A stretch of 34,982 nucleotides of DNA from Intoshia linei (GCA_001642005.1 LWCA01000271.1:1-34982); one strand, 5' to 3'; shown: positions 2,766 to 33,293, counted from the stretch's first letter. The notes: generated by a model from the sequence alone, not told the origin. Made by a program: numbers and translations.

Positions 2766-2809
2766 TGCTGTAAAATAAATTTACATTTATTTTAAAAATT
2801 TAAAATTTT

Positions 2810-5486
2810 ATGAGCTCGCAAAGTATCCCAAAAACTGTACGTAATGTTAAACTATCGATAGTTTTGGATATCGGTAGTTCATACACCAAGTAAGGAATTT
2901 CATAATTTCTAAAGTAATCACTAGGTGTGGATTTTCCGGTACAAGTAGACCTATATGCATAATTCCAAGTGCGTTTCACTCTCAGGCAGCCAACAAAGTT
3001 TGGTTAATTTAAATACTTTTAATATTCATGGTTTTCAGGTCATATATATTGAAAATATAATTTCTAAATATGAACCCTTCTACTATCATCTATTGAAAGA
3101 ATTTATTTCTGTCCTTTATCTGAGGTATTTTTTTGATTCGTTTAATCATTTATTAGATATCTACATGTTAAATCTAACGAAAAAAAAGTTACCATTGTTG
3201 AAAATATGTTTATGTCAAAATTATTACGCGACGCCTTAGCAAAAATATTTTTTACTGTCTTTGATGTAATTTTAGTTTTTATAAACTTTTAATTGTAATG
3301 TAATTGTTCTTACTCTGAAAAGTATATTTTAATTAGGTGCCTGGTTTGAATTTTCTACCGTGTCTTTTATCAAGTTTTTATGTTTTGGGAAATCAAAGTG
3401 CTTTAATATTGGATTGCGCTCATACTCACATTTCAGCGATAGCTGTATATTATATATTATTCATATATAATGTATATTTTTAGGTGTATGAACATGTTCC
3501 TATTATTAGCAGTTTTACTTTTACCAATAATTCTTGTAGATCCGTTAATAAATTTATTTTAAAAGAATTGAGAAAATGCAATGATTTAGGTTTCCAATAT
3601 ATTAAAGGTTGATTTTTTAATTTTTCATATAGAAGACGTAACTATTTCTGAAAGCGATTTGGATAAAATAAGAAGTAAATAATATATTTATTTATATAAG
3701 ATATATCCAACCTAGGGATGATAAAAATTTTATCAAGTTTTTCATTTTTAAGATTATTGACCATTCAATCAAACAAATCTTACCATACAACTTTTTTTAC
3801 TCTTTTCAAGGAGTAGCAATTTTAACTACTGAAAATAATATTGCAAATAAAATACCACTCAAAGGATTAAAATATATTTTTTTTGTCCTAATGAGACCCT
3901 TCAACAGTCTTAAACTTTTGGATAGACCTTTTGAACACATGCATCACTTTGTAGGCCTTGTCATTCTTTACATTGCTGCGAATTTTGGGCCAAAGTTTTA
4001 AAATGATTTCAACGATTTTCTTCATAGACTATATATAGTTTTAAAAATACGAGATCTGGATGTGTTAGTAAAATTTTAACGTTAAATTGTGAGAATATTC
4101 TTAGACCCAATCATTTTTACTATAAATGCACTTTTACCAACCTTAAAGGGAAAAATCCATTTTCACAAACCTTAAGTGAAAATTTCAATTTTATCAATCC
4201 CTAAGTGAAAATTCCTGTTCTTCCAAACCGTACAAGGAAAAATGCAGTTTTACCAACCCTAAAGTGAAAATTCCAATTTTACTTATTTTTAAGGGAAAAA
4301 CCCACTTTTACAAACTCTTTAGGGAAAAATCCAATTTTTACCAATCCTTCACGGATAAATCCACTTTTATAAACTCTAAAACGAAAAATTCAGTTTTACC
4401 AATCCTAAAGTGAGAATTCCAATTTTACCAACTCTAAAATGAAAAAATCAATTTTACCAACCCGTAAGTGAAAAACCCACTTTTACCAATCCTTAAGGAA
4501 AAATCCATAACTATATTATATAAATTTTTATTTTTAGGGTTGGTAAAACTCACTTTTTCGCTTAAGACTTGATAAAATTGGATTTTTTACTTAATGGTTG
4601 ATAAAATTAGATTTTTCCCTTAATGGTTGATAAAATTAGATTTTTCCTTTAATGGTTGGTAAAATCCGAATTTTCACTTAAGGGTCTGTAAAAGTGGATT
4701 ATTTTTTTTAGGGTTGGTAAAACTGGACTTTTTTCTTGAAGTATTGGTTAATTTTCATTTTTAGTAAAAATGGTTGGATTTAAGTAGACACTATTAAATT
4801 ATTATTTCCTGATTTCCATAACTAATTGTGAATCATTTAGCTAAATTTTGTATACTAATGGACGAAAATGATGAAGATGATTCTATTACTGAAACGGTTT
4901 ATTTTTTAAAAAGTCACGATGCTATATATATTTGTAGGAATTTCTTTCATCAGAAGGGAATAAATTGAGTATATCCAAAATAATTCGGTACTATTCATTG
5001 TATAATTTATTGATATTTAGTAAACAAGCCTTTATACAATTACTGGATAGTTCTGAAGGTTCAATTATCACCTTAATTGATAAAGTTTTACAAAAGGTAA
5101 AACTTGATTATTATTAACATTTTTTGAAGGTACCCATAACGTTTCGTCATATCATAGCCAATAAATTATATTTTACTGGTGGATTGGTTCATCAAGATCA
5201 GTTTGTACCAATTGTCATGCAAAAATTAAGAAAACATTTACAACTTAATGGCTCGAATTTAAGTCGTCATTTGTCGTATTACAACACCCCTCTCGGTAAA
5301 CCAAACTACCATGCCTGGTTGGGAGGTAATTTGGTTGGTTAAATATTCTTGATTACAGATTTAGGTTCAATTGCATCTTCTTTACCGTCCGACCTTTACA
5401 AAGACATTGAAATGACGAAACAAGAATACATGTCTGTAAAAACTGTGCCAATGAGGTACGATTGGCTACATTCTCAATTTGAATAA
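2810..5486 (+). CDS. ACTR10: Actin-related protein 10 (dynactin Arp11), multi-exon
   Basis: Spliced reading: MSSQSIPKTVLLDIGSSYTKCGFSGTSRPICIIP...LLKEFISVLYL...KKVTIVENMFMSKLLRDALAKIFFTVFD...SALILDC...LYFTGG...KPNYHAWLGG...QEYMSVKTVPMRYDWLHSQFE*. Many ~35-60 nt introns plus one long, repeat-filled intron. Internal exon boundaries are approximate. Confidence 0.85.
4100..4784. mobile_element. Foldback-type element: terminal inverted repeats plus inverted arrays of a ~30-bp unit
   Basis: Left end CTTAGACCCAATCATTTTTACTATAAATG; right end reverse complement CTTAAATCCAACCATTTTTACTAAAAATG. About 13 units of TTTTACCAAnCnTAAGnGAAAAATCCAn at 4131-4510 face about 7 inverted units at 4530-4750. Confidence 0.8.
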
Positions 5487-6185: not shown

Positions 6186-7986
6186 ATGCGTGTTAAAAAT
6201 ACGCCTACAAAAAATTCAAGTTTTAATCCGATACTGTTGACGTCGCGATCAACGTTGTTTTCTTTGTTCTTACAATCCCAGGAAAAACGAAGATTAAAAG
6301 TTTATAAACATTCCATTCGAAAATTGAAAGAAAAACAATTATTAATACCGCTCAAATCTTTTCAGAGAATTGTTAAAGATATCATTGGAGCTCATGGACA
6401 AAATTTTAGAATCCAATATGAGGCTTTATTGGCTATTCAAGTATTTTATATTTTTAAACATGTTAGTTATACTAATTTTATTCACTTTTATCTAAAAGTA
6501 GTGACAGAAATATTAAGATAATATATATTTTTATAAAAATTATTTTGGATAGTTCAACCTATTTGCAATATCGGATCTAGGTGAGTGCAGGGCGGCCGCC
6601 CACTGGTGACAAATGTGCACCTATATATTTTAATTTGTGTATTTAAAAAAAATTCTAATTTAAAGGATGCATCAAATTGAGTTTATTGAATTATGTTTGT
6701 TATCATTAAAAATATATAATGATCATTAATCTATGTATTATTTGTTATACTAGTAACAGCACTTAAAATTAAATTATCGGACTTAACGTTGTTGATAATC
6801 GAAAGAGAACTTGCCGAAAATGTCGATTTTGATGCAGTTATTGAAAAATTTAAATACATTATAGGAGTTTGGCCCTTAATAATTATTTCGCCCCTGGCTG
6901 AAAATCCTAGATCAGCTACTGCCTACGTATGGTAAAATTATGAGACATTAAAATAAATCTTCACCTTTTTAAATATAAGATTATTTATATTTGAAACCAT
7001 ACTGGTAATCGAAATGTCAAGTATCAAACTCTTATAAAAATGATATCCGAATTTTATTAATTAAATATTGTTTAATTTAAAAGAGATATATAGGGAAAAA
7101 TTATGAAAAATCCATTAGAATAGAATTATACTATATAATTAATTAAACGTTTTAATGTTAACATGTATTTCTTAATGAGTAAATTATTGATTTTTTCGAA
7201 TACCTCAAAAATTCAGATATCGGACAATTCAAAAGTTTTTGAGTATATTAATAAATTTGGAATTAATATAAAATACCTGTATTAGGAGATAATGTTGAAT
7301 AAACAGAAAAATTTAATTTTTTCCATTTGTATTTGAAGATATACCTTTTGAAATTAAAATTTTTAATAATGCTCATGATTTTATAATCTGTACCGATATA
7401 TTTTTTTTTAAATTCTAGAACTCGTTTAATTTTAAAAAAAAAAGAAGATAATTCTAGTTTTTGATAAGGAAGAGGTAACAGTTTCTGAGATTGACATTTA
7501 TTTTTTATTTATGTTTATTTTATTTATTATTAATTTATACCCTGAAAAATCTTATTTTGAATTTATGTGTGTTAAAATGCTAGGACTCTTGGTTATTGAA
7601 AAAATGGTAACACAGACACCAAACATTCAATTTTATATAATTAAGGATAATTAGATTTTTTCATTTGATATTTTTGAGTATCCCTTGTACGTAATATGAA
7701 AAAGTAGATTTTTTAAATTAAATTTTTTACGGTCATGTTTTTTTAATTTTAATAAACAATCTACTGTTAAAATATAGACTGCTGCTGAAGATTACTTTAT
7801 TTCGCTCATGAAAGATGCCGATTTTTGTACTAAACATGGAAAAAGAACCACATTGATACCTAAAGACATAAAATTAGCATTAAAAATTCGGGGTATATTA
7901 TATACTTATGTATTTCTGAAATACACGTAATTATTAGTTATTAATTAATAGATTGTAGTAAGGATCTCTTGGTGCAGAAATTTTAA
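6186..7986 (+). CDS. Divergent histone H3-family protein (CenH3 candidate or novel variant)
   Basis: Exon 6186-6440 plus exon from 7778 (intron 6441-7777, GT..AG) gives LLIPLKSFQRIVKDIIGAHGQNFRIQYEALLAIQ/TAAEDYFISLMKDADFCTKHGKRTTLIPKDIKLALKIR, a complete H3 histone fold. It ends either at about 7930 or, via intron 7893-7951, at 7986. Confidence 0.85.
6566..6921 (+). mobile_element. Old hAT deletion derivative in the H3-variant intron
   Basis: Degenerate TIRs CAATATCGGATCTAGG and (reverse complement) CAGTAGCTGATCTAGG. Internal peptide KLSDLTLLIIERELAENVDFDAVIEKF resembles the hAT/ZMYM1-like dimerisation C-terminus. Flanks CCTATTTG / CCTACGTA may be a decayed TSD. Confidence 0.7.
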
Positions 7987-9529: not shown

Positions 9530-10205
9530 TTAAATTTTAATGATATTTTTACAATTCAGTATTTCTTTAACTCTATCAAATATGTCTTTTAAATAATTAT
9601 TTTTATATTTTTCTTGATCACATTTAAAATTGGTGAATAAATTAAAAAGATAATTAAAATTGCAGGCATTGATTCCTTTGGCATTAGCAATTTGTTCAGC
9701 GATTGTATTATGCGAGTCAGTTTGATTATAATTTGGATGATTAGTTTTTGCAACAAAACAATACGCAGATAAACAAATATCGAGGTCGATATAATGAATA
9801 TCATGAGTATAACAATTAATTTTCATTGTTTGGTACGTATTGTCTTCATAATTTTTCAATTTATCTAATACTTCCTTCTCATTTAAATGCGAAATTTTAT
9901 ACAAATTCCCCCACAATAATTTCTAAAAATTTATTATACAATAATAACAATTACTTACGTTTTCATCAGATTTTTCAATTGTGAGTATTCTGCCGGGCTA
10001 AAAGTTTATATTTTATGATTTTATTAAAATACATTTTCTTTTGTTCCCCATTTCTCTCGACTGACAACCCAAAATTTGGCTTCATAGCCCTTTGTAAATC
10101 CATTTACTACATACTCGTAATCTATTTCTATTAAAATAAAATGGAAATGAAATATCACTATTTACCCAAATCTGGAAATATAAAACCATAAGAAAAAATA
10201 AACAT
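9530..10205 (-). CDS. ChaC-family gamma-glutamylcyclotransferase, divergent paralog A (4 exons)
   Basis: MFIFSYGFIFPDL/EIDYEYVVNGFTKGYEAKFWVVSREKWGTKEN/PGRILTIEKSDEN/KLLWGNLYKI...LKNYEDNTY...IAEQIANAKGINACNFNYLFNL. Same three intron positions as the canonical copy. Confidence 0.85.
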
Positions 10206-10338
10206 TAATAAATACAAATGAAAATATTTTGCTTAGCATAGCAATAATTTTAAAATTTAATGAACTATAAATTTTATATATAATAATTTAATACAGAATA
10301 AACTAATTAATAGTTTCTAATGAGCTGAATGTAAAAGT

Positions 10339-11515
10339 TTATTCAAGTATGGACTTGACCTTAAAGGTGAGTTCGTTGAGATGATCATCACAACTACCGG
10401 GCTTAAATTTTTGCATAGCTGTGTGTAGATTAAATAAATATTCATAATTTGTGCCACTGTTGCCGGAAGCATGAGCAATTTGTAACGCCATCTCCTCGAG
10501 TGGTGCAGGGCCTAAATAACATTCGTTTCCAGGTTGTCCAATGTATATTTCTAGGTTAAAAGGCTTCATTTCTTTATATTTATCGTCTTGAGGGGTAAAT
10601 GGGACTATTATTTTTTCATATCCACCTTTTTCTCGGTAATTTAACTGTTTTTCGATAGTTTTATTATTATCATCTTTAATGTAGTAAGATATTCCCCAAA
10701 CTTTAATCTATAATACAATAAATTACTGTATACCAAAGTCTTACGTTAGCATTTTGAGATTTTACAAGGGTAACCACACGGCCAGGCTTTACATAAATTA
10801 AATTATAAATATTGTAATTTTACTTTTCCCGGTATTCCACGATGATCATAACTACCTTGCCAAAATTTTCTTTCGTATCCAGTTACATATCCTTTCACTG
10901 CAATTTCATATGGAAAATCTAAATATAGTGAAATGATATTATAATGCGATGCTAAAAATTTAACATTCACCCCAATCATTTAAAATTTTCGTATTCACCC
11001 CGTATTATTTCATATTCATAATATAATTATTCACCCCTTGGGTGACCTTTGGTACGTGATAGTGAGATACTTTGGAATTTTGTTTATAAAAAGATTTTTT
11101 TAGATATTATATATTTAAAATAATAACTAAATTTTGTCTCTATTATGTTTAACTCAAGACACGTATATTTTAACTTTATTATGAAAATATGTGTACTTAG
11201 TGAGAATACTAATTATTTAGTGATTTTAGGACACATACAAAAATTTAAAAACTATTTAAAAAACAAATTCTAATTGATTATATAAACATAATTGTAAGAC
11301 AATTCCTGCGTGATAGTATACATCTTTGTCAATTTAGATAAATTATTAGTTTTATTTTACATAAATATATTTTTGTTAGTAATACTATCATGTAAAATTT
11401 ATATTGTAAATATTGTTCACAAAAGTTAAACACGTAATTATATATTATATAAGCCATCTAAAACCTTAAACATACCTATTTTCCATATTAAAGATCCATA
11501 CCCGAATATCCACAT
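10339..11515 (-). CDS. CHAC2: Canonical glutathione-specific gamma-glutamylcyclotransferase ChaC (ChaC2-like), paralog B (4 exons)
   Basis: [67 protein letters not shown]...LNYREKGGY...[31 protein letters not shown]...DDHL. All ChaC motifs (YGSL, HRG, PGRV, REKGGY) are intact. Confidence 0.95.
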
Positions 11516-11758
11516 TTCAATTATAATTTCAAGTAGCAAATGTTATGAATAAACTAGTACGCAGTCAAGTTATGTTTAATTATTAAATATTTTATTTAGA
11601 ATTTTGAACCATATTGCTATGTAATGTATATGGGAAACCCACATAAATAAATATTTAACTAGTTTCTAAGTACATTGAGTTGTATTTACTAAATCATAGA
11701 AATATAAAAAAATAAATTTAAATATATTTATTAACTATTTATCTATAATTACAAAAAG

Positions 11759-12100
11759 CTAGCCATAATATGGTGCTTCATATTTGAATCCAGAGTACAT
11801 GTAATTCCTTTTAATTTCATTTTCAAAGACGTTTTTTGTAAAATCTATAACATCTTGTCTGATTTCCAGGTTTTCAATCTTGTGAATTTCTTGAAATAAT
11901 CGATCAATGTAAGGTTGATATTTTTTGTGAGTATTTATAGTATTAACCACTTCTTTCCTGACTTCTAGAGCATATTTCTCGTTTTCTATAAACTTGGCAT
12001 GCGCTTCTTTAAAAAACTTGTTTATCTGCTTTGTGTTGAGTTTGAAACCAAGAAAGTTGGTTAGATTGCATTTGATATTGTATTCGTAGATGGACTGCAT
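11759..12100 (-). CDS. Hypothetical single-exon protein (~113 aa, MQSIYEY...EAPYYG)
   Basis: Open frame from the ATG at 12100, long for DNA this AT-rich, with charged helical composition. No family recognised. Confidence 0.55.
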   Translation of the reverse strand: MQSIYEYNIKCNLTNFLGFKLNTKQINKFFKEAHAKFIENEKYALEVRKEVVNTINTHKKYQPYIDRLFQEIHKIENLEIRQDVIDFTKNVFENEIKRNYMYSGFKYEAPYYG

Positions 12101-13012
12101 TTTCTTCAATTTCAATTTAAAATGTTTTAATAAATTCTTGATTCGGAAAAATTAATTAACTTAATTATTTATCACGTGTATCCTTAGTGAAACATAATTA
12201 CTGCTTGTGGTGCCAACAAGATGATATAATTATGTAGATGCAACCATATTACACAAAATAAAGGAATCAAGCCGTTATCAATAAATTGTTGTTTTATATC
12301 TAACGTAATCGATGAACGTACAATAGACATCGTACGTCGTATTGTTTATGTCAATACAAACCGTGTTGATAGGAATATAAAATAATGGCCAAAATTGATC
12401 AACCGTTTTTTGTGTAGATTATATCAGAGGAAGTGTCATGAATCCATTACTAATATATAAATTTGTTACACATAAATTGTGTATCTATTATATAAAAAAA
12501 TAAAACAATATTAATACATAGTATGTATTACATACTGTGTTTGACTATTGATCATATCAATTGTACAACGTGAGTTTAACTTGTTGGAGTCAAGAAAGTG
12601 GACTCCAGATTAAACAAACAATGAAAAGTTAATATTCTATGAAAGAATAAGCATTTGGGATTATAATTATATTAGAATTGACATCATATTAGTGACAATT
12701 TTTAATCTTTTTAGAAAAATTAAGATTAACATAATCTATTATAATTAATTCAAATGTATTATTAATATTAATTAAGTAATTCAGGAATAGATAACTTTTC
12801 GTGTCCACTGAAGGCTTGTGTAAAACCCTCGAAAAATTATATATTCAATGTTTCAAAAAAACTATAAACCTTAAAAAGTTACAGTATGGTCACAAAGAAT
12901 ATAGATTTTTTTTATAAAACTAACAATTATTCATCAAACAACTTATACCTTAGCCCCTACAGTTTTATCTGACGTAAACCGTTATATAACTATTTTATTA
13001 CATTAATCCATT

Positions 13013-14501
13013 ACTTGCATAAAATTGAATGTCTGTGTTACCGTATATGTAAAAAATTAACAGTCGTATAATTTAAAAAACCCAATTTATAATACAATTT
13101 TTTGCGAGTGATGTTTATAAATTTTTTATATCTACGTTTCATTATCCAAAATTAAGTCCTTCAGGGTCAAAAACCCAATTCCCACTTTTTTAAAAATAGA
13201 ATCAGCCCAAAATTAAACAAAATATACATTCTGGGACGCGTTTTAAAACCATTAAGATTGTCACAAATCTAAGCCACAGAAACGTACATCCTCATGGCCA
13301 AAACCACAAATTACTTTCGTTTTAAAAATGACATAAGTCTTAAAATTTTAAAAAAAAATTTTTAAAAATTCTGGAAATAGGTTTAAAATCATATGTATTA
13401 TCATAAATGGCAACCTCAATAAAGTACATTTCATTATCAAAACCACAAATTACCCTTTTTTTAAAAAATGAAAATAGTCCTAGAATATTAAAAAAAATTA
13501 CACCTGATACCGATATATCCAGTTAACACACACAAAAATTTTCAAAGTGACAAAGTGATGCCTTCACGGTCAAAAAAGTACTTTATTATTCATTTTTTTT
13601 TGAAAATATTTTATAAAAACAAAAAATTTGAAATGGTTAAGGTCCTATAATTAAAAAAAGGATTATTTTGATACAGATTATTCCACTTTATGTAGAGACA
13701 AAATTTCAACACCAGAAATCTAGGCATTTCCGGTGAAAAATAATTTTTAATGTATTATATCAACAAATATGTTGGGATTAAAATTAGAAATGAAAATGTA
13801 AATATTCATACTACAATTTCGAAAAAAATTTGAATTTACTTTATATACATTTTAAATACAAAAATATGGGTTTCAATCTGATAAATTGATTCCATCTATT
13901 TTTTGTCATTACTTAGTAATTTACTATGTAGTTTCTCATTTTCAAGTTTAGATTTAAATCCAGTATAACTTTGTTATTATTATGTTGAGATTTATTATAT
14001 TTATTTAATTATATTGGAAAAATTATTCGAAATGTATATTTAATTGTGCTAAATCCTTTATTTATAGATATAAATTATTTTTTTATTATCGAAAGCAGTT
14101 AATGAATATATTCCATCAAATTATACTACAGGTTTTTTAATTTTATTTTTTATGAAATTCATGTTATTTATGATGATTTTTAGGATTGTACTGTTTGGAC
14201 TTTATTTTTTAGAATATACCCTCATTGTCTCTAATAAATTAAAAAAATTGCATCACCAAATTTGCTTTTAAAAATTTTTTACATAAATAAAATTAAGTTA
14301 ATACTACTAAATTCTTACTTATATTAATTTGAATCGAGCAGTCCATCGTGAAATAAGTTTGGGAACCACTCCTTTACCCAAAATTAATCATAGAAGAAAA
14401 AACTATGTAATACAGGTATTTAAAATTTTATATTTTCTAGGATTTCTGAGCCTCGGTAGAGCCAGCTGCTGTTTGTACGAAGTACATAACAGTCAAGCTA
14501 G
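13013..14501 (+). mobile_element. Non-autonomous Helitron-like element, near full-length degenerate copy (5' end approximate)
   Basis: The 3' end has hairpin CTGTTTGTAC-GAA-GTACATAACAG followed by TCAAG-CTAG|T (14498-14502). The 5' region has GTCTGTGTTACCG. Internal blocks (CACGGTCAAAAAAG, CCAGAAATCTAnGCATTnCCGGTGAAAAATAATTTTTAAT) recur at 34320-34510. Confidence 0.75.
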
Positions 14502-14786
14502 TTTTCTAATAAAATTCCACCACACTGAAAAAATTTATAATTTTTTTTAATTATTACTACGTTCATAATTTGTCAATTTAAATTTTTACTTTGTTATATT
14601 TCTTTGTTATAATAACATTGTTATAGTTATATTGTATTAATAAATTTATATAAGTTAGGATTCACAAAATATAATAAACATCTACTAAGTAAATAAGGAT
14701 ACTAGGTAATCCATTTCGTGTCAACCGACGTGATTAGATTGATATTAAATTGAATTAGAAAATTATTATAATTCAAATAAAACTGA

Positions 14787-15423
14787 ATGTGGATTTTTAC
14801 TTATGGATTATTTGTTTGGCAGATTAGTTTCATATTTATTTCTTCCAATATATCGAATTTAAACAGATTTTGAATATAAAGACTCAGTTATCGGATTTGT
14901 CCCGGAACATCAACGAAGTTTTTCTCTTAAAAGTAAAGCTCGATGGGGTACAGAAAATGAAGTAATTAAATATAAAGTAGTTTTGTACATATTATTCATA
15001 GCCGGGACTAGTTCTTAATATTGAAAAAAATAAAAATGTAATTATAAAGATGAAAAATAAATCAATTAGTTATTTTAGGAAAATGTTTATGGTGTCGCTT
15101 ATAATCTGGACAAAGAGGCAATTCTAAAAATGGATGAAATAGAGGGTGACCCCTATGAAAAATATTTGGTGAAATTTGTACCCAATGATTCCAAATACAA
15201 TAATATCAAATGTTTTGCTTATTTTTGCAAAACAAATATCCCTTTATACGTAGGCATATCTGACATAGACAACCAAGCATTAATCATAAGTAAATCAAAA
15301 GGATCGCAAGGAAATAACTACGAATATGTTTTCAATCTAAGAGACAAAATGATGGAAATAAATTTACCAGTGGATCAATACTTGGAAAGTTTATATCAAA
15401 AATTATGTAAAATGATAAATTAA
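14787..15423 (+). CDS. ChaC-family divergent paralog C (4 exons)
   Basis: MWIFTYGLFVWQI/NFEYKDSVIGFVPEHQRSFSLKSKARWGTENE/PGLVLNIEKNKN/ENVYGVAYNLDKEAILKMDEIEGDPY...ISKSKGSQGNNYEYVFNL...DQYLESLY. Reading frame intact. Confidence 0.9.
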
Positions 15424-16240
15424 ACATTCGTATTTATTTGAGCATGGGAAACTGCCAAAATTAACAATCTTCCAGAAAGTACATGACTACCTGTAATTAT
15501 GTTGGAGTTATCATTGTGTTTCAAAGTTTAATAATACATTTTATATTATATTATTAACCATACCAATGATTATATACCAGGACTTGGTATGATATACTTT
15601 GAAAGTTGATATCTATTGATCACACTTTCACATATGTCAAGTAGTGAATATCGATTCGTGCCTTCACTTAACTTCTGAACTGAAAATTATAATATACTAA
15701 AATGTTATATTGATCATACCTAGAAATACTGTGTAAATAACCCGATGGGTGACACAATATCATGTTAATTTACATGTTAATGTTAAAAAATAATTTGATT
15801 CGATTTTATCATTCGTGGCTCCTTGAATTTTTATTTACAGTTCGCGACAGCATACTTTTGTCATAAATATTTGTGCTGTATTCATAAATATTAAATATAC
15901 AACTACAGTTTTAAAAATTAAATGTATGTTCATTAGGAAACATTTTATTTTCCCTAGCATAATAACTGTCGTTGACTGTTAATTTATATGACTAATACAT
16001 ATAGGAGGCCTATAATTTTAATCTGACTCTGCCCACTTTTGGATCTCCATGAACCTGAATATCCTACAATATTGTATGATACCTGGTATCTAGGAAAATT
16101 ATTAAAACGCGGAAAACAGGTAAAAATAAAAATTTAATTAAAATTACTCATTATTAAATAAATAATTCAGTACTAAAGGGGCTATAAATAATTACAAACA
16201 GCTAACAAATATAGAACTTTCAACACGCTAATATAAATTA

Positions 16241-16777
16241 CTAGGTTGACTGTTATGTACTACGTACAAACAGGACCTAGCTATGCCGAGGGCACATTTT
16301 TATTATAGTTAAAAAATAAATTCACGTTGAAAATCTAATTTAAAAATCCTACTATTCACAATTATCAATCCTATAAAGGAGTGGTTTCCAAATTTATGTC
16401 AGGTGGAACCATAATATCACATTAATTTTTACTTTAAAGTGAATTATTCCAAATTTCCAAATTTATGATTATATTTATGATAATAATTATGATTTTAAAA
16501 TCCGTATCAGCCAATATATTTTTTTAAATTCTCAAGAATTGATTTTCTCGTTTGATTTTCATTTATCTCTATTTCAATTTTCAAAAAGAGGGACAATTGG
16601 GGTTTTTGACCTGTATTGTTTCTGACCTGATGTGAGTTTGGGAGGTTGAAATTTATCGTATTATACGTCCCAGAAAAACTGTAATGGAAATGTAGACTTT
16701 ATAAAATTCTAAGACTAGTAGTTATTTCAATAAAGTGGAAAACACAAACCAAAATCGCATAGCATATTATATAAGTT
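16241..16777 (-). mobile_element. Internally deleted copy of the Helitron-like family
   Basis: A|CTAGGTTGACTGTTATGTACTACGTACAAACAG is the reverse complement of the hairpin plus CTAG|T end. The other end shares GTTATTTCAATAAA...CACAAAC...GCATAGCATATTATA with the copy at 30980-31160. Confidence 0.75.
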
Positions 16778-17418
16778 AAACTTATTTTTGGTTTAAAAAA
16801 TATGATACTGAATTTATTTAATGATTCACGTTTGGCACATCAAGTTTGATTTTCTAAATAAATTTGTATGCATCTATTAATTTTTGTTGTTTACCTTCGT
16901 TATCTAATACATGGATATTTTATAATTTCATTAACTTACTTCATAATATATTAGAATGTGGATCTTCACTTAAGGCTTATTTGTATGGAAGGCAAGTAAA
17001 TTAATTATAAGGGAAATTCATTAAAATATAAAATGCAGCCAATCTCTTTTAAATAGTATTATGAATCAATTAGCTCTGTCAAAATCATGTTGAGTTTTAA
17101 ATTGTACCAAAACTTTTATGTTATTTGTTCACTTATAGGGTAATTTGCTTTTTAATGGTTAAATCTTCCCTCAGTTATTAAATATATGTAATTTATATAT
17201 CGGCCACACTGTTTATCTTTAATTAAAATATTTTTAACTTAACTTATAATAAATAATTGTAAATGTATTATTAAACGTCAGCACTAAAAATTTAAAAAAA
17301 TCTGTTTTACACATTATACTATATAATTCTTCATAATTATGATAATGAAATTTTTGGCTAAGCATAATAATTTCAGAGTTAATTAATTGAATCATATGAT
17401 ACAGATAAGCATCTCAAC

Positions 17419-17868
17419 CAGGGGCGGATTCAAGGGGGTGCAAAAAGTGAAGTTCACCCTCCAAATTTTTTTAAAAAAAAATTTTCATTTATTAAAACAA
17501 TATAGATGGCGCATAACATTACATGAACAATTGATCATGTTACTTGAGGCCTTTTGTTATGTGGACTACCCTTATGAATTGCCACTATGACTATAATTTT
17601 GATATTGAAAGTTTGGTTAATGAATTTGCAATACTTCATCCAAGAAAACTGGACCCAATTGATTTAGGATTATTTTATCAACAAAATTAATTTCTCTTTT
17701 TTTTTGTGCTGATCATTTTTATATTTTTGCTAAAAAATACAAATTTGGAAACTATTGTATAACAACTTTTAAATGAAATTAAAAGAGACGTTCTAAAAAG
17801 TCGGCAAAGTTAAATATATTGCTCGCTTCGCTCGAATCCCATTAACTAGCCTCTTGGATCCGCCTCTG
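17419..17868 (+). mobile_element. hAT deletion derivative with 5-bp TSD (hAT5-like)
   Basis: TIRs CAGGGGCGGATTCAAG and CTTGGATCCGCCTCTG, with TCAAC on both flanks (17414-17418, 17869-17873). Internal remnant MNCHYDYNFDIESLVNEFAILHPRKL resembles the C-terminus of P52rIPK/THAP0-like hAT transposases. Confidence 0.8.
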
Positions 17869-18532
17869 TCAACGCAGTTAAATTATAGCGACCATTTTTC
17901 AAGGCAGAAATATTGAATTGATAATTATAATCTTATTCATTTTCAAGTTGTCACATCCTACATCAAAAGTGGTATACGATATATTTTTTCTTAAAATAAA
18001 ATGATCTATATTTGTAATTAGTAATTATTATCATTAAAACTGTTAGAATTCGAATACACGGAAAAATTGATTGGTTTTATACAAGGATACAAAAGAATTT
18101 TTGCTCAAAAAAGCATTACTTATTATGGCACAGATAGTAGAGTAATTTTATAATTAACAAAATATAAATGTAAATAAAATATAATAATAATTTTTGTTTT
18201 TTAAATATAGCCCGGTTTGGTATTAAATATTGAAAAAGAAAAAAATGTAATTAATAATAATTGATAGAACTTTGCGCAGTTCGACATCAGAGCCCTGGAC
18301 AGGGACTAGGATCAAATGGCTATTAGATTACATGGAATTAGGCAATAATGTGGCAAATGTTAACCCTTTTTGATAGATTATATTAGTTCCAAAATACCAG
18401 TCTATGGAAATTTTATTGACAGTATTATAATTAATACATTTTCATATTTCTATAGTTCAGTCAATTTAAATAAATTACTGGTCCGCCGTGAAAAAAGTGT
18501 GGAAACCCCTGAATCATACGGGCCATATCTAC

Positions 18533-18768
18533 TAGAGTTCTGCGTCGGATTGGGTTGAGGTGATATGTACGAACGAAACAAAAAAATTTTGTCCGAAAAA
18601 CACCCTTAACACGAAATACAAAAAATCCGAAACACGATTAAAATTTAATCAAAAATTAATTAAATTAAATTAAAGATTAGTTGTTGAAAACTTACAACAC
18701 AAAATATTGAAATTTTGTAAACACGATCCGAACACGAACTTCGGATCGGATCATGTTGCAGAATTCTA
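18533..18768. mobile_element. hAT-type MITE with TAG-type termini
   Basis: TIRs TAGAGTTCTGC and GCAGAATTCTA. Flanks ATATCTAC / GTACCTAC match at 6 of 8. Subterminal AACACGA/TCCGA repeats. Confidence 0.7.
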
Positions 18769-19569
18769 GTACCTACACAAAAAATAGAATTTAAAGAAAT
18801 TATTAATTTTAAATTTTTATGTAGTCAGTCCAAGTCCATTTGAGCATTTTCGATTGCTAATATTTAAACTATATTTTGACCGTATTGTCAGTTAAGGATT
18901 TTAATATATTATACATAATTATAAATGTGTTAATAGAATAATGTATATAGATTGGCTTTTAATGTAAATGCAGAAACTATGGCCATGCTCGACAAATTGG
19001 AAAGGAGTGGATATGAAAAAAACCATTAAAATTTACATTGGACGATTTAAGTGACAAAAATACAGAATCAACCATTTAATGCTTGGTATACGTCTGTAAA
19101 ATAAGCCATCCACTGTATGTTGGAAATTTAAAAGTTGAAAAAATATGTAATATGATATGTAAATTATCAGGCTGGCAAGGACGAAACTATAAATACCTAT
19201 TTAATTTACAAGAAGCATTACAAGCCTTAAAAGTACCAAAAGATGAATATATTGACGAAATTTATGTAAAAGTTAAAAAGTTACTAATGAATAGTAATTA
19301 ATATCATTATTTTTATATTATGTTCTTTGTCTACATTTTACATGCATGTTGACTCAAAACTATCATAATAAATGTTAAATTTTAGAAATGATTTAAATAA
19401 TTAAAAAACAAGTAAAAGGTTGCAATTAAAATATAATCTCATATGGTGAAAGTAAATGTAAAATTTTAATTATCCTGGTTAATAATTATAATCGAATGTA
19501 AAAAATATAATTTGGTAACAATATTCTACATATCAATTAAAATATTAGGTATATATAGTTAATAATATG

Positions 19570-20216
19570 TTAAGTGCAATTTTTAGTATTTAATTTTTGT
19601 TTCACTTTCTGGTATAGAGGTTCTAAACATTTATCGATCGGAGCATTGAGTTTTTTTAAACCATCTCTTATACCAAAAAGATATTTATGGTTTGGACCTT
19701 CATTGCCTTCAGAGCTGCAAATTGTTTGGGATATAATGTCCAAGTTAGTTTCAGTAGAAAGTGAAGGGTGACCTTTTACGCACATGTATGCCAAACATTC
19801 AATAGTTTTTCCGTTGTGTTTGTCGTCAACTGCTGTAAAAATCACTTTTCGTTTTTGATATGCATCCCCTTCTCGTCTATCCATATGATTAATTGTTTCA
19901 TCGTCCACATTATAAGCTACACCATAAACGGATTCCTAAAAATATTAAAATAAGAAATAAAACTCTTACATTATTATTTTCTTCAATATTGAGAGCTAAT
20001 CCTGGCTACCATATAATAAATATTAAAATAATAGTGATAAATACTTTCATATTTGTTCCCCATAGTCTAGTACTTATCGTGGTAAAACTTCTTTGATAAC
20101 CGCTAATGTAACCAAATGCAGTGTCATTGCTGAAAAAGTCTACATATTTGAAAATTTGATGAAATTGTCTTTTTACCTTTCTGCAAAATAAGCCATCCAT
20201 ATGTAAATATCCACAT
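19570..20216 (-). CDS. ChaC-family divergent paralog E (4 exons)
   Basis: MWIFTYGWLILQK/DFFSNDTAFGYISGYQRSFTTISTRLWGTNMK/PGLALNIEENNN/ESVYGVAYNVDDETINHMDRREGDAY...ICSSEGNEGPNHKYLFGI...DKCLEPLY. Reading frame intact. Confidence 0.9.
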
Positions 20217-20444: not shown

Positions 20445-23400
20445 TTAATTATGTCGATAGAAATGAATACATACTATAGCACAAACTAAAACTATTGTAT
20501 ACACCTAAATATATTCATTAGTTTTTTTATTATTATTATTTAAGAATTTCAAATTTTTGGGAATTTTTTCTTTTATAGTTAAATAAGAGGTTTTTCTTGT
20601 CGGGTTTGGTAAAAACGGATTTTTCAAAAAAATGTTATAAAGTGGATATAAATTGCTAAATTTGTATTTTCTCTGTTCGAGTTTTTTCTCCTTAGTAATA
20701 TTAATTAATTTCTGAAATAATATATTTCTTTAGCCGTGAACCCCTGTTATATAGCGTGGACCCCTTTGAGAAACACTGTTTTGAGATGTAATAAAATAAA
20801 TTATGTAATTTACAACGTAATTCCAGCATATATAGATATAATTGTAGGCCATTTGCACAACACAACCAAAAAAAGCATTTTCATAACATCTATAATTTCA
20901 TTCAATAACCATAATAATAACGATTATCATACTTGTCCATAATATATTGCATTATTTTGTATTTTTCTTTTGATACATCTTTAGGTAATACTCCGTTCAA
21001 AATGTGCGCCAATTCATATACTGCCTAAAAATACATACATGTATATGATTTACTACATTAATAATATTACATCATAATGATGGAACTTATGGAATGGAAT
21101 ATTACTTGTATGGAATTTTCATTGACGGCCAACAGATAATATTGTATACTGTGATTAATAATATCTTTATTGGTATAAATTTTAGCAATTTCCAACAAGG
21201 CTTTAATTTTTGAAGTTAATCTAATATCTTTTAAAGATTTTTTGTACAAATACAGAATTATGTCATCATCCATAATATTATTAAACTTAAAAGTTTCAAT
21301 TTCCTAAATAACATTAAATCAATTTAAATTTCATGAAACGGTATTTTGAATCATGTAAGCTGCATTGTAAGATGAAACTGAATTTCCCATTTCTGCAAGT
21401 TGCATGTATTCCCACCAAATTAAATTATTTCTCGTTTTGTTTTTTAAAGAATCACGAATATACCGTAATTTTTTGCATTCAAATAATGTTTGATGTAAAA
21501 TATTTTGTAAATGTCTAATTAATAAAAAATTTAAAAAAACGCAAGTCATCATAACTATGTTCATAAAATTACGTTTTAGGTTCATTAGTATTGGAAAATA
21601 TAGGAGGAATTCCATAGTTAAAATACTCGGAAAATAATGCAATAGCTTCAATCTGATCATATGAAACGGCCATTTTCAGATATTCATAAGCTTTTATCTA
21701 TAATTTTCTTTATTTTTTGTAAATTATAAATAATATTTCTAAAACTAACCAAGTTCATATACACTTCTAAAAATGTATAATCTGTATAGGTATTACCAGC
21801 ATTTTATTTTATTACCGTAATATTAAAAAATTAGTTTATTTTTGTAAAATACATTATTACAGAGTTGTCAGATGTTAACATTTTACTCCAACGTCTAGAC
21901 TCTAGAGTCTAAAAAACTACTACATTATTATTTTAAAAATTCCACTTTGATCCCACCATTTAATAAAAATATTAATAAAATTTAATAATATCTTCTAAAA
22001 AACACCATCTCAAGCTTTTGATGTAAAAATCCCTTCATTACTATTTTAAAAAAGCTTGTGAGGAAAAAACGTTTTCATCCAACCCCAAATAAAAAATACA
22101 ATTTTACCAATCTTCATGTCTTAACTTAAGGTACAATATCTTTTCCCACATTTTTTTGAAATTTTTATTTTCTATTTTATCAAGACTTATGAAAAAAATT
22201 CTTAATCCAACCACAAAATAAAAAACCAAAATTTTAGCAACCATGAAGGAAAAATCCCTTTTTCCGAGTACTCAGTTCTAATCATTAAAAATTTATGAGA
22301 CATACAATCGTCATTGTACATGAGTGTACATTTTACAAATTAATCATTTATAAATTTCAAAAAATTTGATGGTGCCATCAAAAGGTTATTGGTACCAATA
22401 AATCGACCACTCTTGATATAATACGTTTAATACGCTTTAAATTACAAATTGTAACAAGGCGTGGAAAATTTTAGCAATAAAGTAAAATTAAATTATATGT
22501 AAATTAGTAATGTAATTATTATTATTAATTTATTAAAATTAATGACACAATCCCTTTCTCATCATTAAAAAATTTTTTTTAAGTAAAAATCATGATAAAT
22601 TAATCATACTATGAAGCATATAATGTATTATCTTGATATTTACCTATATATAGAACATTAGAAAGGTTTAATTAAATTATATACTTATAATACATTAATT
22701 GACATATAATGTAGCATTACTCGGTCAATTGGAATAATTTTGCCATTTCCGTAATAGTATACAGATGCAACATTATAGGCTGCATCAAAATTGTCTCCAT
22801 TTTCTACAGATTTTTCGAACCACATTAAACCAGCTCTATAGTTTTTCAAAATATCATAATAATACCAACCTAGAGCATTCATAGCATAGGACGACCCCTA
22901 ATGATTTATAAATAATAATTAATTCTTTTTTTTATAATTAAATAAAATCTAATCATATTTACCAAAGTGCATGTGAGGCGTAAAAAATTATTAGGGACTA
23001 GTTACATATTATATTGTACTAGCTTGGCTGTTTTGTGCTTTGTACAAACAACACCTAGCTCTGCTGAGGGCGGACTTTATCTACTTCTACCAAATAATAT
23101 AATATTACATAACATTCCACTATTCACTATAACCAATCTTTTAAAATAATGGCTCCCAAACGGGTAAAGCAATTTTTTACTTTTAAATTATGGGACCATT
23201 TAATTATATCAATTTTTTTGTTTTAATGAAATTACTCAAAAAAATGGTAAACAGTATATTGCTTTTTTGAATATGAAAGCTTAATTTAACATTGAAACTT
23301 TATATATTTAACTGGAAAAAGCTGTATTAAATTTGATCTTTTTTTAGATTCTAAGAATATTCGGTTTTTTTAATTTTTTAAAATAACGATAATGCACAAT

Positions 23401-26400
23401 GTGTATTGCACATACAGACAGACACACAAAAAAAGACTTTTTATATAAGTTAATATGGGTAATTTCGGTTTTTAACAATGAAGATATAAGTTTTTGAAAT
23501 TAAAATTTGAAATTTTCATGATTTTAAAATATGCATCAGAATGTAAAAAAATTTCTAGGTCTCGTTTTATTTTTAAAAATATGATGCGTTGTTTGGGGTT
23601 TTACTCTAAAAGACTCAATTTCTAAAATCTAATTTGTGATAAAATGTAATCCACGAAAAACTGTATTAAGAATTAATGTTTTTAAAAATCTACATATCTT
23701 ACTTTTGTAAATAAGATCAAAAAAATTAAAAAACTGAAATCCTCTTCTAAATAAATTGATTCATTCGAAATCATCCCAAAAAATTTCCCAAAAAACCCTT
23801 TTGAAAATATGGTTAAAAAATCTACTAAAAACATTCTTTCAAATTTGGTTAAAAAAATTCACTAAAAACCCCCTTGAAAATGTGAAAAAAAATCCCCTAA
23901 AATCCTCTTTAAAAATTTTCAAATATGATCCCAAAAAATTTCGCTAAGAAAACCCTTCTTTCAAATGTGGTTACAAAAAAATTTCCCTATAAACCCTTTT
24001 GAAAATATGGTTAAAAAAATCTACTAAAAACACTCTTTCAAATTTGGTTAAAAAAATTCACTAAAATCCTCTTTAAAAATTTTCAAATATGATCACAAAA
24101 AATTTCACTAAGAAAACCCTATTTTCAAATGTGGTAAAAAAAATTTCCCTAAAAACCCTTTTGAAAATATGGTTAAAAAATCCACTAAAAACACTCTTTC
24201 AAATTTGGTTAAAAAAATTCACTAAAAACCCCATTGAAAATGTGAAAAAAAATCCCTTAAATCCTCTTTAAAAATTTCCGTAAAAACTCTCTTGAAGATA
24301 TGGTTAATATAAATTTTCTTAAAATCCCGCTTAAAAATGTGAAAAAAAATCTCCTAAAACTCCTTTGAAAATATGGTTAAAAAATCCACTAAAAACACTC
24401 TTTAAAATTTGGTGAAAAAAAATCGTCTAAAAACCCCCTTGAAAATGTGTTACAAATAAATTTAAAAATTTGTTTATTTATTTGTTATCTATTTTTTTAA
24501 TTTTTGTATATGAACTGTGGGTTATTTACAATTCTAGGACTATTTTCATTTTTTTAAAAAGGGTAATTTGGTTTTGGCCATGAAGATTTATGATAATATG
24601 ATGTTAAAATCTGTATCAGAGTGTATATTTTTTTAAATTTTAGAACTAGTTTGGTTTTCAAAAAAAAAGATAATTAGGGTTTTTCGCCGGTAAGATGTGA
24701 GTTTCTGAGATAAAGATATATCTTAGATTCACCACCGGAAAAAACTGTAATAGAAATGTAGAATTTTTTAAATTCCAAGACTCTTAGTTATTGAAATTAA
24801 AATGAAATTGAACTTGAAATTGAAATAAACGATAACACATACAGACAAGCAGTCATTATATTAAAATACCAGAGCAATTGCTTTATGTAAATATTCCAAT
24901 CCTTTCGAAAGATCTTTTTCTATACCTTGACCCTAAATTAATGCACATTTAATATTTTCTGATTTTTAAAAATTTAGAAAAATTTTCCCATTTTTCTATA
25001 TCTATCTACATTTTTTCAATTTTTTATATTACATATTGTATAATTTTTTCTACGGTTGACATTATTATTACACACATGCTAGCTATGGGGCGTTGTATAA
25101 ATAAATTTTTATATAAAAAACTGAAACCGGTTGACATGAAATCTACTCCAAAAATATAATTTTAGATTATGTATATTTGAAATAGAATAGAAAAATCGCC
25201 CTCAACGGAGCTATTCGACCACCATTGAGAATCCCGGATATAGATGTAAACTGTAAATTTTATACCCGAACCGAAATATAACCAAAGACTTATATAAAAT
25301 GAAATAATCCGCATAAACTACTTTCTAACCTATAATAATTTATAATGTTCCATTATATACTCATTTCGAAAATGTTAAGCTTAACATGAAAAGAAAGAAG
25401 GTAAACACATCTAAAAATATTAGAAAGCAATCGATTATGAATCTAACTTTGCCATTATAGAATTTTTATAAAATTGAATTGTGAAATGGTAATTCTTAAA
25501 GAAAATTAAAAATCACTACTAACTAAAAGAACAGTGACCAGCAAACTACGCACCGCAATTACATTTTTGTGTCCACGAATTTGTAATAAAAAGTAGATTA
25601 CTCTCATTCATTTTAATCTAACGTAAAACACGGATATTACTACTGATATGTATAAATGTTTACCAATAATAAAACAATTCCATAATTGTAATAATTCATA
25701 GCATTTTGTGATTCATTTTCAAAATTTTTTTCTTCTGACTGAACAGCAGCTTTTTCATACAATTCTGAAGATTTTTCTAAATTTTGTTCCATACCACTGA
25801 ATCCATAATGATACATGGCAGAAAGTATATTCTAAATTAAGTATAAGGATATAAAATAAAACATTGTATACCATAGCTTCTTGTTGTACATCAATATAGT
25901 CTATTTTTGTTTTAAATTCTAACCATTCCATCAAATGTGAAGTTTTTACATCTCGTTTAACAATATTATCTTCTAAATATTCATTTTCGTAGCGAATCTA
26001 TTTATTGAAGTTAATTAATGATTTAATGTCTTACGGTAGCTTTATTAATTTTTCTTTCAACAATTATATGTTCAACGACTTCCCTGGAATACACTATACA
26101 ATTAAACTTATAAGATAAAATAATATTATATTATATTTTTAATATACTATATTTTATTTTTTGCATCAAGAATTCATCATTATTATCAAATAGCTGAAGG
26201 TATGTTTGTATACAGGGCACATGCGAAGAAATTACGCACTTAATCAATGAGTATATCTACATATCATAAAAAACATGAAAAATATCATATACAGAATAGT
26301 TCATGTCAAGTTTTTCATATTTTGAAAGAATATATTGATCGAAATTGGCAGATTCATAATCGTAAAAAGCTGCTCTATGAAGATTTTTAGTATGTAAATG

Positions 26401-28251: not shown

Positions 28252-28721
28252 TTTATTTGTTTATAGATACTATGGTTGTAGTGTAAACACATGCCCATAC
28301 AATATAATTGTATACACAAGTATATTATAAACATAGATTTATAAATAATAAGAGAAATCGGTTTCTAAAATCGATCATTCATCCTCTAACCGGGATTATT
28401 TATAAATCTTTTAAAGGCATAATCCATGGTCTTGAATATCCAGTAATTTGATTTCTCTAAAAATGTATTTCATTTTTATCTAAAATTTATAAAAATCATT
28501 TCAAAAATAATAATAATAATAATAAATTATATCTAAAGTTTTGAGGACTATTCACGATTCTGGCTAATGTTATTTGGTTGTTATATACAAATGTAATTTT
28601 GAATTTTATTGATTATTTGGGTTATCTTTAGTATAGTTTTAATCAAATTAAATGATGGATGAACAATCAGGTATTTTATCGTTCAAATAATTGTAAGGCC
28701 CAGTCTGTGTTTATAGATATA

Positions 28722-31160: not shown

Positions 31161-31383
31161 TTTGTCGACTCATTTATAAAAATCGATTTATAATTATTTC
31201 TACAAGAAACCATCTTGTAATTTATTGTTAATTTTAGAATATTTGATAACTTATCAAATGATAAGTTGAGATAAAAGGCGTACAATAAAATAATTACCCG
31301 TGCTACAAAAGAAAGGGACATATTAGGGCCATAAAAAATATATTTATATTTGGTATAGATACAAATATAAATAAACTTTGAAA

Positions 31384-32948: not shown

Positions 32949-33293
32949 TTAAATTGTTGATCCATCTACAGAAATTAAAATTATACCATCGCCTCGAATG
33001 AATAAAAGTGGTATTTTTCGTTTTACTTTTTCATAAACTTCATCATATGTTTCATCGTCGATATGAACTGAATTTATTTAAAAGAAATATATCTTTGGTT
33101 TACCTTTGTATGTTTCTTCTTCGACTTCACTAAGTATCATATTTAGGTGTTGATCAAAAGAGTTCATTTTGCCTTTTACAATTCGATTGTTTCGCATTTT
33201 TACTAAAATATATCCGTTTATCGAATATTTAATTAGGTCCAGAGGTTCTTTAATATTTTGAAAAGTAGGTATGACCGGTACATTGCGTTTCAT
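32949..33293 (-). CDS. LSM3: U6 snRNA-associated Sm-like protein LSm3 (2 exons)
   Basis: IKEPLDLIKYS...VKMRNNRIVKGKMNSFDQHLNMILSEVEE, then after a 36-nt intron HIDDETYDEVYEKVKRKIPLLFIRGDGIILIS. Confidence 0.93.

What the first reader, a model, noticed from the sequence alone, without database searches (positions are those of the whole stretch)
9530..20216. Five-member ChaC array with the catalytic Glu kept but glutathione-binding motifs rewritten
Seen: five ChaC paralogs in about 10.7 kb, in mixed orientations (-,-,+,+,-), all with the same three intron positions. Only copy B is canonical. The others change YGSL to YGFI/YGLF/YGWL, DHRG to EKWG/ARWG/TYYG/RLWG, and (in C, D, E) PGRVVT to PGL(V/A)LN. 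All keep the catalytic-position Glu and downstream Tyr: YREKGGY versus NYEDNTY, EIEGDPY, KLERSGY and RREGDAY. Known: animals typically carry one or two ChaC genes; the YGSL loop binds the gamma-glutamyl group and the Glu (E115 in human ChaC1) is the catalytic base. Inference: a lineage-specific subfamily of cyclotransferases acting on a different, possibly more hydrophobic gamma-glutamyl substrate (GSH conjugates, isopeptides, host metabolites). The aromatic residue replacing the Arg of HRG in all four divergent copies suggests a selected new pocket. The short introns hide this array from an ORF track.
Basis: partly seen in the sequence, partly recalled or inferred. Interest (0 to 1): 0.8.

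Follow-up and report, generated by a model that had tools for sequence, protein, structure and literature searches.

The report
Parasite ChaC copies with rewritten pocket
A parasitic orthonectid worm keeps one ordinary-looking glutathione-cleaving (ChaC) gene beside three spliced copies and one broken copy that retain the catalytic glutamate but have lost the conserved substrate-binding residues, so the intact copies likely act on some other gamma-glutamyl compound, which no assay has yet tested.

Summary
The array is real: five ChaC loci (-,-,+,+,-), each with a 40-nt first and 95-nt second exon. Database names place the contig in Intoshia linei. B is canonical (36 of 36 family-conserved sites). 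A, C and E are intact, spliced in one public run and under purifying selection. A, C, D and E form one clade, so Arg40-to-aromatic is most simply one inherited change, not four. They keep Glu83, Gly7, Asn141 and the pocket tyrosines but lose Ser8, His39, Arg40 and Ser138. Among 147 other library hits these are nearly fixed (Ser8 45 of 47, Arg40 56 of 56), and no relative with the rewritten pocket turned up. C and E are predicted to keep the ChaC2 fold. Best reading: a lineage-restricted cyclotransferase for a less anionic, non-glutathione gamma-glutamyl substrate (about 45%). A non-catalytic role is the main rival (27%). The substrate is untested. Public gene models appear mis-fused (B+A; Sel1 gene+E). 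New variant of a known family; interest 0.5.

The parts
9530..10205 (-). Copy A, intact, 188 aa; exons 10205-10166, 10127-10033, 9997-9959, 9922-9530. Most divergent copy; loop 1 YGFI, Trp at Arg40, Glu83 kept.
   Evidence: Splice model; 3 of 3 joints in run X1; residues 14-188 identical to P0009 154-328
10339..11515 (-). Copy B, canonical ChaC2-like gene, 181 aa; exons 11515-11476, 10918-10824, 10786-10745, 10707-10339.
   Evidence: 52% identity to fish ChaC2 P0001; 36 of 36 conserved sites kept; introns 2 and 3 seen as joints
14787..15423 (+). Copy C, intact, 171 aa; exons 14787-14826, 14867-14961, 15002-15037, 15079-15423. Loop 1 YGLF, Trp at Arg40, Glu83 kept.
   Evidence: one contig spans all four exons with 3 of 3 joints; equals P0011 over 166 aa; model pLDDT 96.7
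16956..19301 (+). Copy D, pseudogene; exons 16956-16995, 18047-18141, 18211-18246, 18937-19301. TAA at 16971-16973, frameshift at the A run 19016-19022, TAA at 19077-19079, invariant Gly62 changed to Arg; introns 1 and 3 enlarged.
   Evidence: Pfam ChaC hit on 19080-19298
19570..20216 (-). Copy E, intact, 178 aa; exons 20216-20177, 20139-20045, 20005-19970, 19935-19570. Loop 1 YGWL, Trp at Arg40, Glu83 kept.
   Evidence: introns 2 and 3 seen as joints; identical to P0010 847-1024; model pLDDT 95.5
17419..17868 (.). Small insertion element in D intron 1, with 19-nt terminal inverted repeats (16 of 19 match) and the same 5 nt on both flanks.
   Evidence: repeat-like cover by many diverged contigs

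Best explanation
One ChaC gene was likely duplicated in the lineage leading to Intoshia linei; copy B kept the canonical glutathione pocket, while the sister copy lost its polar and basic pocket residues and multiplied into A, C, D and E, whose intact members likely still cyclise a gamma-glutamyl group to 5-oxoproline but on a less anionic, more hydrophobic substrate than glutathione. Shown: gene structures, splicing of A, B, C and E, purifying selection, one clade for A/C/D/E, the kept and lost residues, and the breaks in D. Predicted: the ChaC2 fold of C and E. Inferred: Glu83 still acts as general acid/base; the loop-1 backbone amides with Tyr6, Tyr87, Tyr109 and Tyr144 still hold the glutamyl part; Trp40 and the bulky residue at position 8 wall a hydrophobic site for the leaving group. 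Candidate substrates are gamma-glutamyl amines (lysine isopeptide, polyamine or biogenic-amine conjugates) or gamma-glutamyl hydrophobic amino acids. All five models begin at the first family motif with no N-terminal extension, so the proteins are likely cytosolic.
For: Glu83 is kept in 4 of 4 divergent copies. Of B's 17 Asp/Glu only positions 83 and 98 are kept in all four, and of its 18 Lys/Arg none. The kept set (Tyr6, Gly7, Glu83, Tyr87, Tyr109, Tyr144) matches the residues listed as shared across GGCT-fold enzymes with different substrates (PMC7022552; PMC2954230). A review states that loop-1 backbone amides bind substrate and that surrounding loops vary with specificity (PMC12756093). 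In GGACT, Thr9 can be Ala, so the hydroxyl is not strictly required. Ser8, Arg40, Arg82 and Ser138 are nearly fixed in library hits (45 of 47, 56 of 56, 138 of 142, 136 of 147) and their human ChaC1 counterparts are named as glutathione contacts (bioRxiv 2024.07.21.604522). Hydrophobic residues at 20 chosen pocket positions number 9-10 in A, C, D, E, against 5 in B and 4-7 in 45 of 46 full-length hits. Trp40 is shared by A, C and E at 26-45% identity. Pairwise dN/dS is 0.005-0.08. In all 10 pairs codon position 2 is 0.52-0.73 identical and position 3 only 0.32-0.53, against about 0.31 at random; neutral simulations left 0, 5 and 12 of 2000 frames open. Models of C and E match human ChaC2 at Z 24.8 (rmsd 1.8, 165 aligned) and Z 24.2 (rmsd 1.8, 168 aligned).
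Against: No activity was measured and no pocket geometry was inspected. Ser8 (human Ser40) and Arg40 (Arg72) are listed as essential for substrate binding in ChaC1 (primary mutagenesis paper not seen). A bulky residue at position 8 occurred in none of the 47 hits with an aligned first loop. Retention of listed active-site residues (5 of 7) is not significantly above other conserved sites (10 of 29; Fisher p 0.10), and the tyrosines may be structural. Position 8 differs among copies (Phe, Leu, Leu, Trp), as does Ser138 (Asn, Gln, Gln, Glu), which argues against one precisely tuned site. Tyr109 in A depends on the alignment. The folds were predicted from alignments with 46 of 48 rows from other ChaC proteins, so likeness to ChaC2 is partly built in. 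dS is saturated, so the dN/dS values show constraint only, not its size or timing.
Confidence: 0.45

Rival explanations
1. A, C and E are non-catalytic or nearly inactive proteins kept for binding a ligand or a partner, for example as regulators of B or as carriers; Glu83 persists for structural or binding reasons.
For: Two residues called essential in ChaC1 (Ser40, Arg72) are replaced, with Arg114 and Ser172 equivalents also lost in most or all copies. Active-site retention is not significantly enriched (p 0.10). The fold has been repurposed before: the Paulinella transit-peptide domain has it without the catalytic centre (bioRxiv 2025.01.15.633182).
Against: The Paulinella domain lost the Glu, whereas here it is kept in 4 of 4 copies over 24-45% pairwise identity and is one of only two charged residues of B kept in all four.
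Confidence: 0.27
2. The divergent copies still cleave glutathione or its S-conjugates, with changed affinity or regulation; the array is a dosage or stage-specific expansion.
For: Same predicted fold as ChaC2; Ser36, Asn141 and Glu83 are kept. Tandem ChaC pairs that both cleave glutathione exist in Leishmania (PMC9586994).
Against: The Leishmania pair keeps the YGSL/I signature. Here His39, Arg40 and Ser138 are lost in all four copies and Arg48 and Arg82 in three of four, removing positive charge where a doubly carboxylated substrate is predicted to bind.
Confidence: 0.13
3. The copies act on glutamyl or glutaminyl residues within peptides or proteins, where the alpha-carboxyl is not free: removing gamma-linked groups or forming N-terminal pyroglutamate.
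For: The lost residues are a hydroxyl and several arginines, the kind that would bind free carboxylates (inference); the acid/base Glu stays. Human CHAC1/Botch is reported to act on a gamma-linked glutamate in Notch1 (PMC12756093).
Against: Which carboxylate Ser8 and Arg40 bind was not established from anything read here. The reported Botch activity comes from a canonical pocket. There is no N-terminal extension to bring the proteins to secreted substrates.
Confidence: 0.1
4. The divergent copies are decaying duplicates or come from another GGCT-fold family (GGCT, GGACT or a bacterial ChaC-like gene) and are not repurposed ChaC genes.
For: D is broken. C and E pass the Pfam GGACT cut-off (29.8 and 37.7 bits against 22.8). 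The nearest Atlas clusters by features are mostly bacterial ChaC/GGACT-like (0.93). B does not join them in the free tree.
Against: Exon lengths and intron phases are shared with B. ChaC scores are far higher (108 and 106 bits). Fold Z is 24-25 to ChaC2, 14.5-15.6 to GGCT and about 10 to GGACT. 14 of 46 other ChaC proteins also hit GGACT at E 0.001 or better. Constraint on A, C and E is strong.
Confidence: 0.05

Closest known systems
ChaC2 glutathione-specific gamma-glutamylcyclotransferase (PF04752; human 6K95, 6KY0, 6KY1; yeast 5HWI)
   Same: Best sequence and fold match for all copies tested. Glu83, Gly7, Tyr87, Asn141 and Tyr144 kept. B keeps 36 of 36 conserved sites.
   Different: A, C and E keep only 21, 23 and 22 of 36 sites and replace Ser8, His39, Arg40 and Ser138.
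GGCT, gamma-glutamyl amino acid cyclotransferase (human 2PN7, 2I5T, 3CRY)
   Same: Same fold (Z 14.5-15.6); the catalytic-Glu region aligns weakly (E 0.27); works on non-glutathione gamma-glutamyl compounds, as proposed here.
   Different: About 20% identity; the copies have ChaC length and share B's gene structure. That GGCT has a Trp in the equivalent loop and keeps the loop-1 Ser is recalled, not checked.
GGACT/A2LD1, gamma-glutamylamine cyclotransferase (3JUB, 3JUC; PF06094)
   Same: Shared catalytic set Tyr-Gly, Glu and three Tyr; C and E exceed the Pfam cut-off; its substrate class is a leading candidate.
   Different: Fold Z about 10 and 13-18% identity; GGACT keeps Thr, Ser or Ala at loop-1 position 3, not a bulky residue.
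Leishmania tandem ChaC2a/ChaC2b
   Same: Tandem ChaC paralogues in a parasite (PMC9586994).
   Different: Both keep YGSL/I and cleave glutathione with similar Km.
Paulinella chromatophore transit peptide part 2 (9I08, 9I09)
   Same: GGCT fold with a partly rewritten YGSL loop (Z 8.5-11.3).
   Different: It lost the catalytic Glu; these copies keep it.

Membership tests
ChaC (PF04752), copy B | Profile match, YGSL loop, His-Arg-Gly loop and catalytic Glu | tested here: met
   (36 of 36 conserved sites)
ChaC (PF04752), copies A, C, E | Pfam ChaC score above the curated cut-off and best-matching family | tested here: met
   C 108.1 and E 105.8 bits, cut-off 21; A last exon 57.7 bits
ChaC (PF04752), copies C, E | GGCT fold closest to ChaC2 | tested here: met
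   Predicted models, Z 24.8 and 24.2, rmsd 1.8; alignment-guided; A was not folded
ChaC (PF04752), copies A, C, E | Catalytic Glu (83 in ChaC2, 115 in ChaC1) | tested here: met
   by alignment
Glutathione-specific ChaC enzymes, copies A, C, E | YGS(L/I) signature loop | tested here: not met
   Ser8 is Phe, Leu, Trp; Ser in 45 of 47 library hits
Glutathione-specific ChaC enzymes, copies A, C, E | His39-Arg40 in loop 3 (Arg72 of ChaC1) | tested here: not met
   Trp at 40; Arg in 56 of 56 and His in 51 of 56 library hits
Glutathione-specific ChaC enzymes, copies A, C, E | Cleavage of glutathione to 5-oxoproline and Cys-Gly | not testable with these tools
   Needs an enzyme assay
GGACT/AIG2-like (PF06094) | Pfam score above the curated cut-off | tested here: inconclusive
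   C 29.8 and E 37.7 bits against 22.8, but 14 of 46 other ChaC proteins also match at E 0.001
GGACT/AIG2-like (PF06094) | Closest fold and sequence are GGACT | tested here: not met
   Z about 10 against 24-25 for ChaC2
GGCT (C7orf24 type) | Closest fold and sequence are GGCT | tested here: not met
   Z 14.5-15.6; profile E 0.19 against 1.6e-28 for ChaC2

The most novel reading that the evidence does not exclude
The rewritten copies are the first GGCT-fold enzymes that do without the loop-1 hydroxyl and the basic residues because their substrate has no free alpha-carboxylate: they would cyclise or strip peptide-bound glutamyl or glutaminyl groups, or free amines from gamma-glutamyl conjugates in the host, giving the orthonectid plasmodium a chemistry that evolved from a glutathione housekeeping enzyme.
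Probability: 0.12. Interest if true: 0.8.

Novelty: new variant of a known kind. Interest (0 to 1): 0.5.

Why it matters
ChaC enzymes are known as glutathione-specific, with a nearly fixed pocket. Here one animal carries a canonical control (B) beside three intact, constrained variants that keep the catalytic residue and drop the recognition residues. This is a natural test of what makes ChaC glutathione-specific and of whether the YGSL serine is needed. Gene gain in a lineage described as simplified (PMC6543705) hints at a need of the parasite. The public models look mis-fused, and their UniRef names call all three glutathione-specific, which probably over-annotates A, C and E. The reach is limited: one species, no assay, and tandem neofunctionalisation is itself common.

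Tried and rejected
No whole genome is held, so other copies elsewhere and the presence of GGCT or GGACT genes in this species were not checked. No RNA holder was listed on record; X1 is of kind '?' and is taken as RNA only because it skips introns. No contig at 99% likeness covers D's exons; this is not used as evidence of silence. Contig depths were not used to rank expression. B intron 1 and E intron 1 were not among the joints shown. Relatives with the rewritten pocket: none found among the best 150 of 256 hits of a last-exon profile, 599 near-length candidates or 7990 longer candidates. Seven hits that differ at both Ser8 and Arg40 lack the surrounding motifs and were set aside as wrong N-termini. 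The 47-row mixture-model tree and its AU test did not finish; the quick tree had 1 of 44 branches starred. It was redone with 23 rows under LG+G4, where long-branch pull is possible. A true Sel1-ChaC fusion was considered less likely: the Sel1 gene can close on its own stop near 20730 through a 43-nt intron, but no RNA joint tests this. Capture of C by a transposon was rejected: the inverted repeats flanking it are dispersed, with further copies at 23017-23071 and 28712-28930. An alternative genetic code to rescue D was not pursued: TAA ends A, B, C and E, and D also has a frameshift. No complex prediction was sent. Literature: 'Intoshia linei' + 'ChaC' gave 0 papers; listings (25 of 485; 2 of 2; 10 of 18,489) showed nothing on divergent ChaC arrays; the ChaC1 mutagenesis paper and GGCT pocket residues were not found. 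The species' genome paper and its supplements were not read. Three look-ups of earlier findings returned nothing.
Full report
Observation. Translation of both strands and a splice model by coordinates give five ChaC loci between 9530 and 20216, oriented -,-,+,+,-. All five have a 40-nt first exon and a 95-nt second exon, with introns in phase 1, 0 and 0. A (188 aa), B (181), C (171) and E (178) are open frames. D has TAA in place of the Tyr of the YG loop, a frameshift after the Glu/Tyr motif and a second TAA; its invariant Gly62 is Arg and an insertion element sits in its first intron. Last-exon pieces of all five match Pfam ChaC.

Splicing. One public run, X1 (kind not on record, one study), holds contigs that skip exactly the predicted introns: A 3 of 3, B 2 of 3, E 2 of 3 and C 3 of 3, with no other letters in the listed exon pieces. 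I infer that X1 is RNA. Depth was not used.

Source and annotation. Database names give Intoshia linei, with the whole window as one contig. [quoted passage not shown] Public models are OAF69500.1 (B fused to A), OAF69502.1 (C, 166 aa) and OAF69503.1 (a Sel1-repeat gene fused to E). The joint 10127/10166 shows that A has its own first exon, so the B+A fusion is at least not the only form. The Sel1 gene can end on its own stop; this is untested by RNA.

What is kept and lost. Numbering follows ChaC2 through P0001, which aligns to human 6K95 without gaps over 175 residues. PMC7022552 (methods part and passages) lists Tyr6, Gly7, Ser8, His39, Arg40, Glu83, Tyr87, Tyr109 and Tyr144 in the cavity. 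For ChaC1, Tyr38-Gly-Ser-Leu41, Asp68, Arg72, Glu115 and Tyr143 are called essential (bioRxiv 2024.07.21.604522, passages; PMC12756093, passages and section 1.1). I map these to ChaC2 by offset, not by an alignment. A profile of the last exons of A, C and E, which excludes both N-terminal loops, was run against 1.84 billion representatives. The window's own three models scored 1e-50 or better and the next hit 1.7e-13 (best 150 of 256 listed). Among the 147 others, Ser8 stands in 45 of 47 with the first loop aligned, Arg40 in 56 of 56, His39 in 51 of 56, Arg82 in 138 of 142, Glu83 in 141 of 142 and Ser138 in 136 of 147; the rest are fragments without those regions. Of 36 sites at least 85% conserved, B keeps 36, A 21, C 23, D 22 and E 22, so fast genome-wide change alone does not explain the pattern. 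All four divergent copies lose Ser8, His39, Arg40 and Ser138; three of four lose Arg48 and Arg82. All keep Gly7, Ser36, Glu83, Tyr87, Asn141 and Tyr144; the intact three keep Tyr6; Tyr109 is clear in C, D and E and alignment-dependent in A. Of B's 17 acidic residues two, and of its 18 basic residues none, are kept in all four. Against my reading: the excess retention of listed active-site residues is not significant (5 of 7 against 10 of 29, p 0.10).

Selection. Pairwise codon models give dN/dS 0.005-0.08 and reject neutrality in 10 of 10 pairs, but dS is saturated. Second codon positions are 0.52-0.73 identical and third positions 0.32-0.53, with about 0.31 expected at random. Simple neutral simulations left 0, 5 and 12 of 2000 frames open for A, C and E. 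D's branch is about as long as C's and E's, so it likely died late.

Origin. In a 23-row tree A, C, D and E form one group (99/97) and C, D and E another (100/97). B sits unresolved among canonical proteins, and holding all five together is not rejected (AU p 0.32). A larger tree did not finish. Shared exon lengths and linkage are the better evidence for descent from B's ancestor. I recall that introns 2 and 3 match the human CHAC2 positions; this was not checked and would make them ancestral, not diagnostic. No relative with the rewritten pocket was found; other orthonectids may simply be absent from these libraries.

Fold. Models of C and E have mean pLDDT 96.7 and 95.5. They match human ChaC2 at Z 24.8 and 24.2 (rmsd 1.8; 165 and 168 aligned), GGCT at 14.5-15.6 and GGACT at about 10. 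C and E pass the Pfam GGACT cut-off, but 14 of 46 other ChaC proteins also match that model at E 0.001 or better. Atlas look-alikes are ChaC/GGACT-like clusters (leads only).

Mechanism. In this fold a glutamate deprotonates the alpha-amine of the gamma-glutamyl group, which attacks the amide to give 5-oxoproline; loop-1 backbone amides bind the substrate and surrounding loops set specificity. GGACT uses Tyr7, Gly8, Thr9, Leu10, Glu82 and three further tyrosines, and tolerates Ala at Thr9 (PMC2954230, passages). The divergent copies keep this shared core and drop the polar and basic residues, gaining hydrophobic ones (9-10 of 20 positions against 5 in B). I infer a working cyclotransferase for a less anionic substrate (0.45). 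Gamma-glutamyl amines are one candidate class; gamma-glutamylation of biogenic amines in invertebrates is mentioned in PMC6434831 (one passage), with no link to this species. Rivals: non-catalytic binder (0.27; precedent in bioRxiv 2025.01.15.633182, passages, though that domain lost the Glu), altered glutathione enzyme (0.13; the Leishmania tandem pair keeps the signature, PMC9586994, passages), peptide-directed activity (0.10), decay or foreign origin (0.05).

Verdict. B is an ordinary ChaC2-like gene. A, C and E are ChaC by descent and predicted fold but fail two signature tests of the glutathione-specific enzymes and should not be filed as such. D is a pseudogene. A search for 'Intoshia linei' with 'ChaC' found no paper in the held library; the genome paper was not read. 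New variant of a known kind; interest 0.5, limited by one species and no assay.

Noticed in passing
window 11759-12151 (-): Orphan ORF between B and C (130 codons stop to stop), with no Pfam match above cut-off; an X1 contig covers 11747-12143 with no other letters.
   Followed up: partly
window about 20720-27539 (-): Sel1-repeat gene with a hydrophobic N-terminus, fused to copy E in the public model; it has a possible own last exon and stop near 20730.
   Followed up: partly
window 6186-6521 (+): Divergent histone-fold gene with an unusual N-terminus (Pfam Histone E 8.5e-6); H3-like by eye, possibly the centromeric variant (guess).
   Followed up: no
window 31375-32920 (+): FAD-binding oxidoreductase (FAD_binding_2, E 9e-29) with a hydrophobic N-terminus; resembles soluble fumarate reductases (recalled), of possible interest for low-oxygen metabolism or gene transfer.
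   Followed up: no
window 1470-2780 (-): Single-exon JmjC/Cupin_8 protein of 431 aa; KDM8/JMJD5-like by recall.
   Followed up: no
window 18530-18771 and 17419-17868: Two short elements with terminal inverted repeats (14 and 19 nt) in the introns of pseudogene D.
   Followed up: partly
window 4100-4784 and 23734-24449: Local repeat arrays: the first with direct and inverted units, the second a tandem array.
   Followed up: no
library proteins P0049, P0101, P0116 (also P0015): Other mildly divergent ChaC proteins: Arg82 changed in P0049 and P0101, Glu83 apparently lost in P0116; P0015 appears to hold two ChaC parts in one chain.
   Followed up: no
window 1185-1436 (+) and 33078-33302 (-): C-terminal exon resembling malate dehydrogenase (recalled, not scanned) and an LSM-domain exon.
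   Followed up: no
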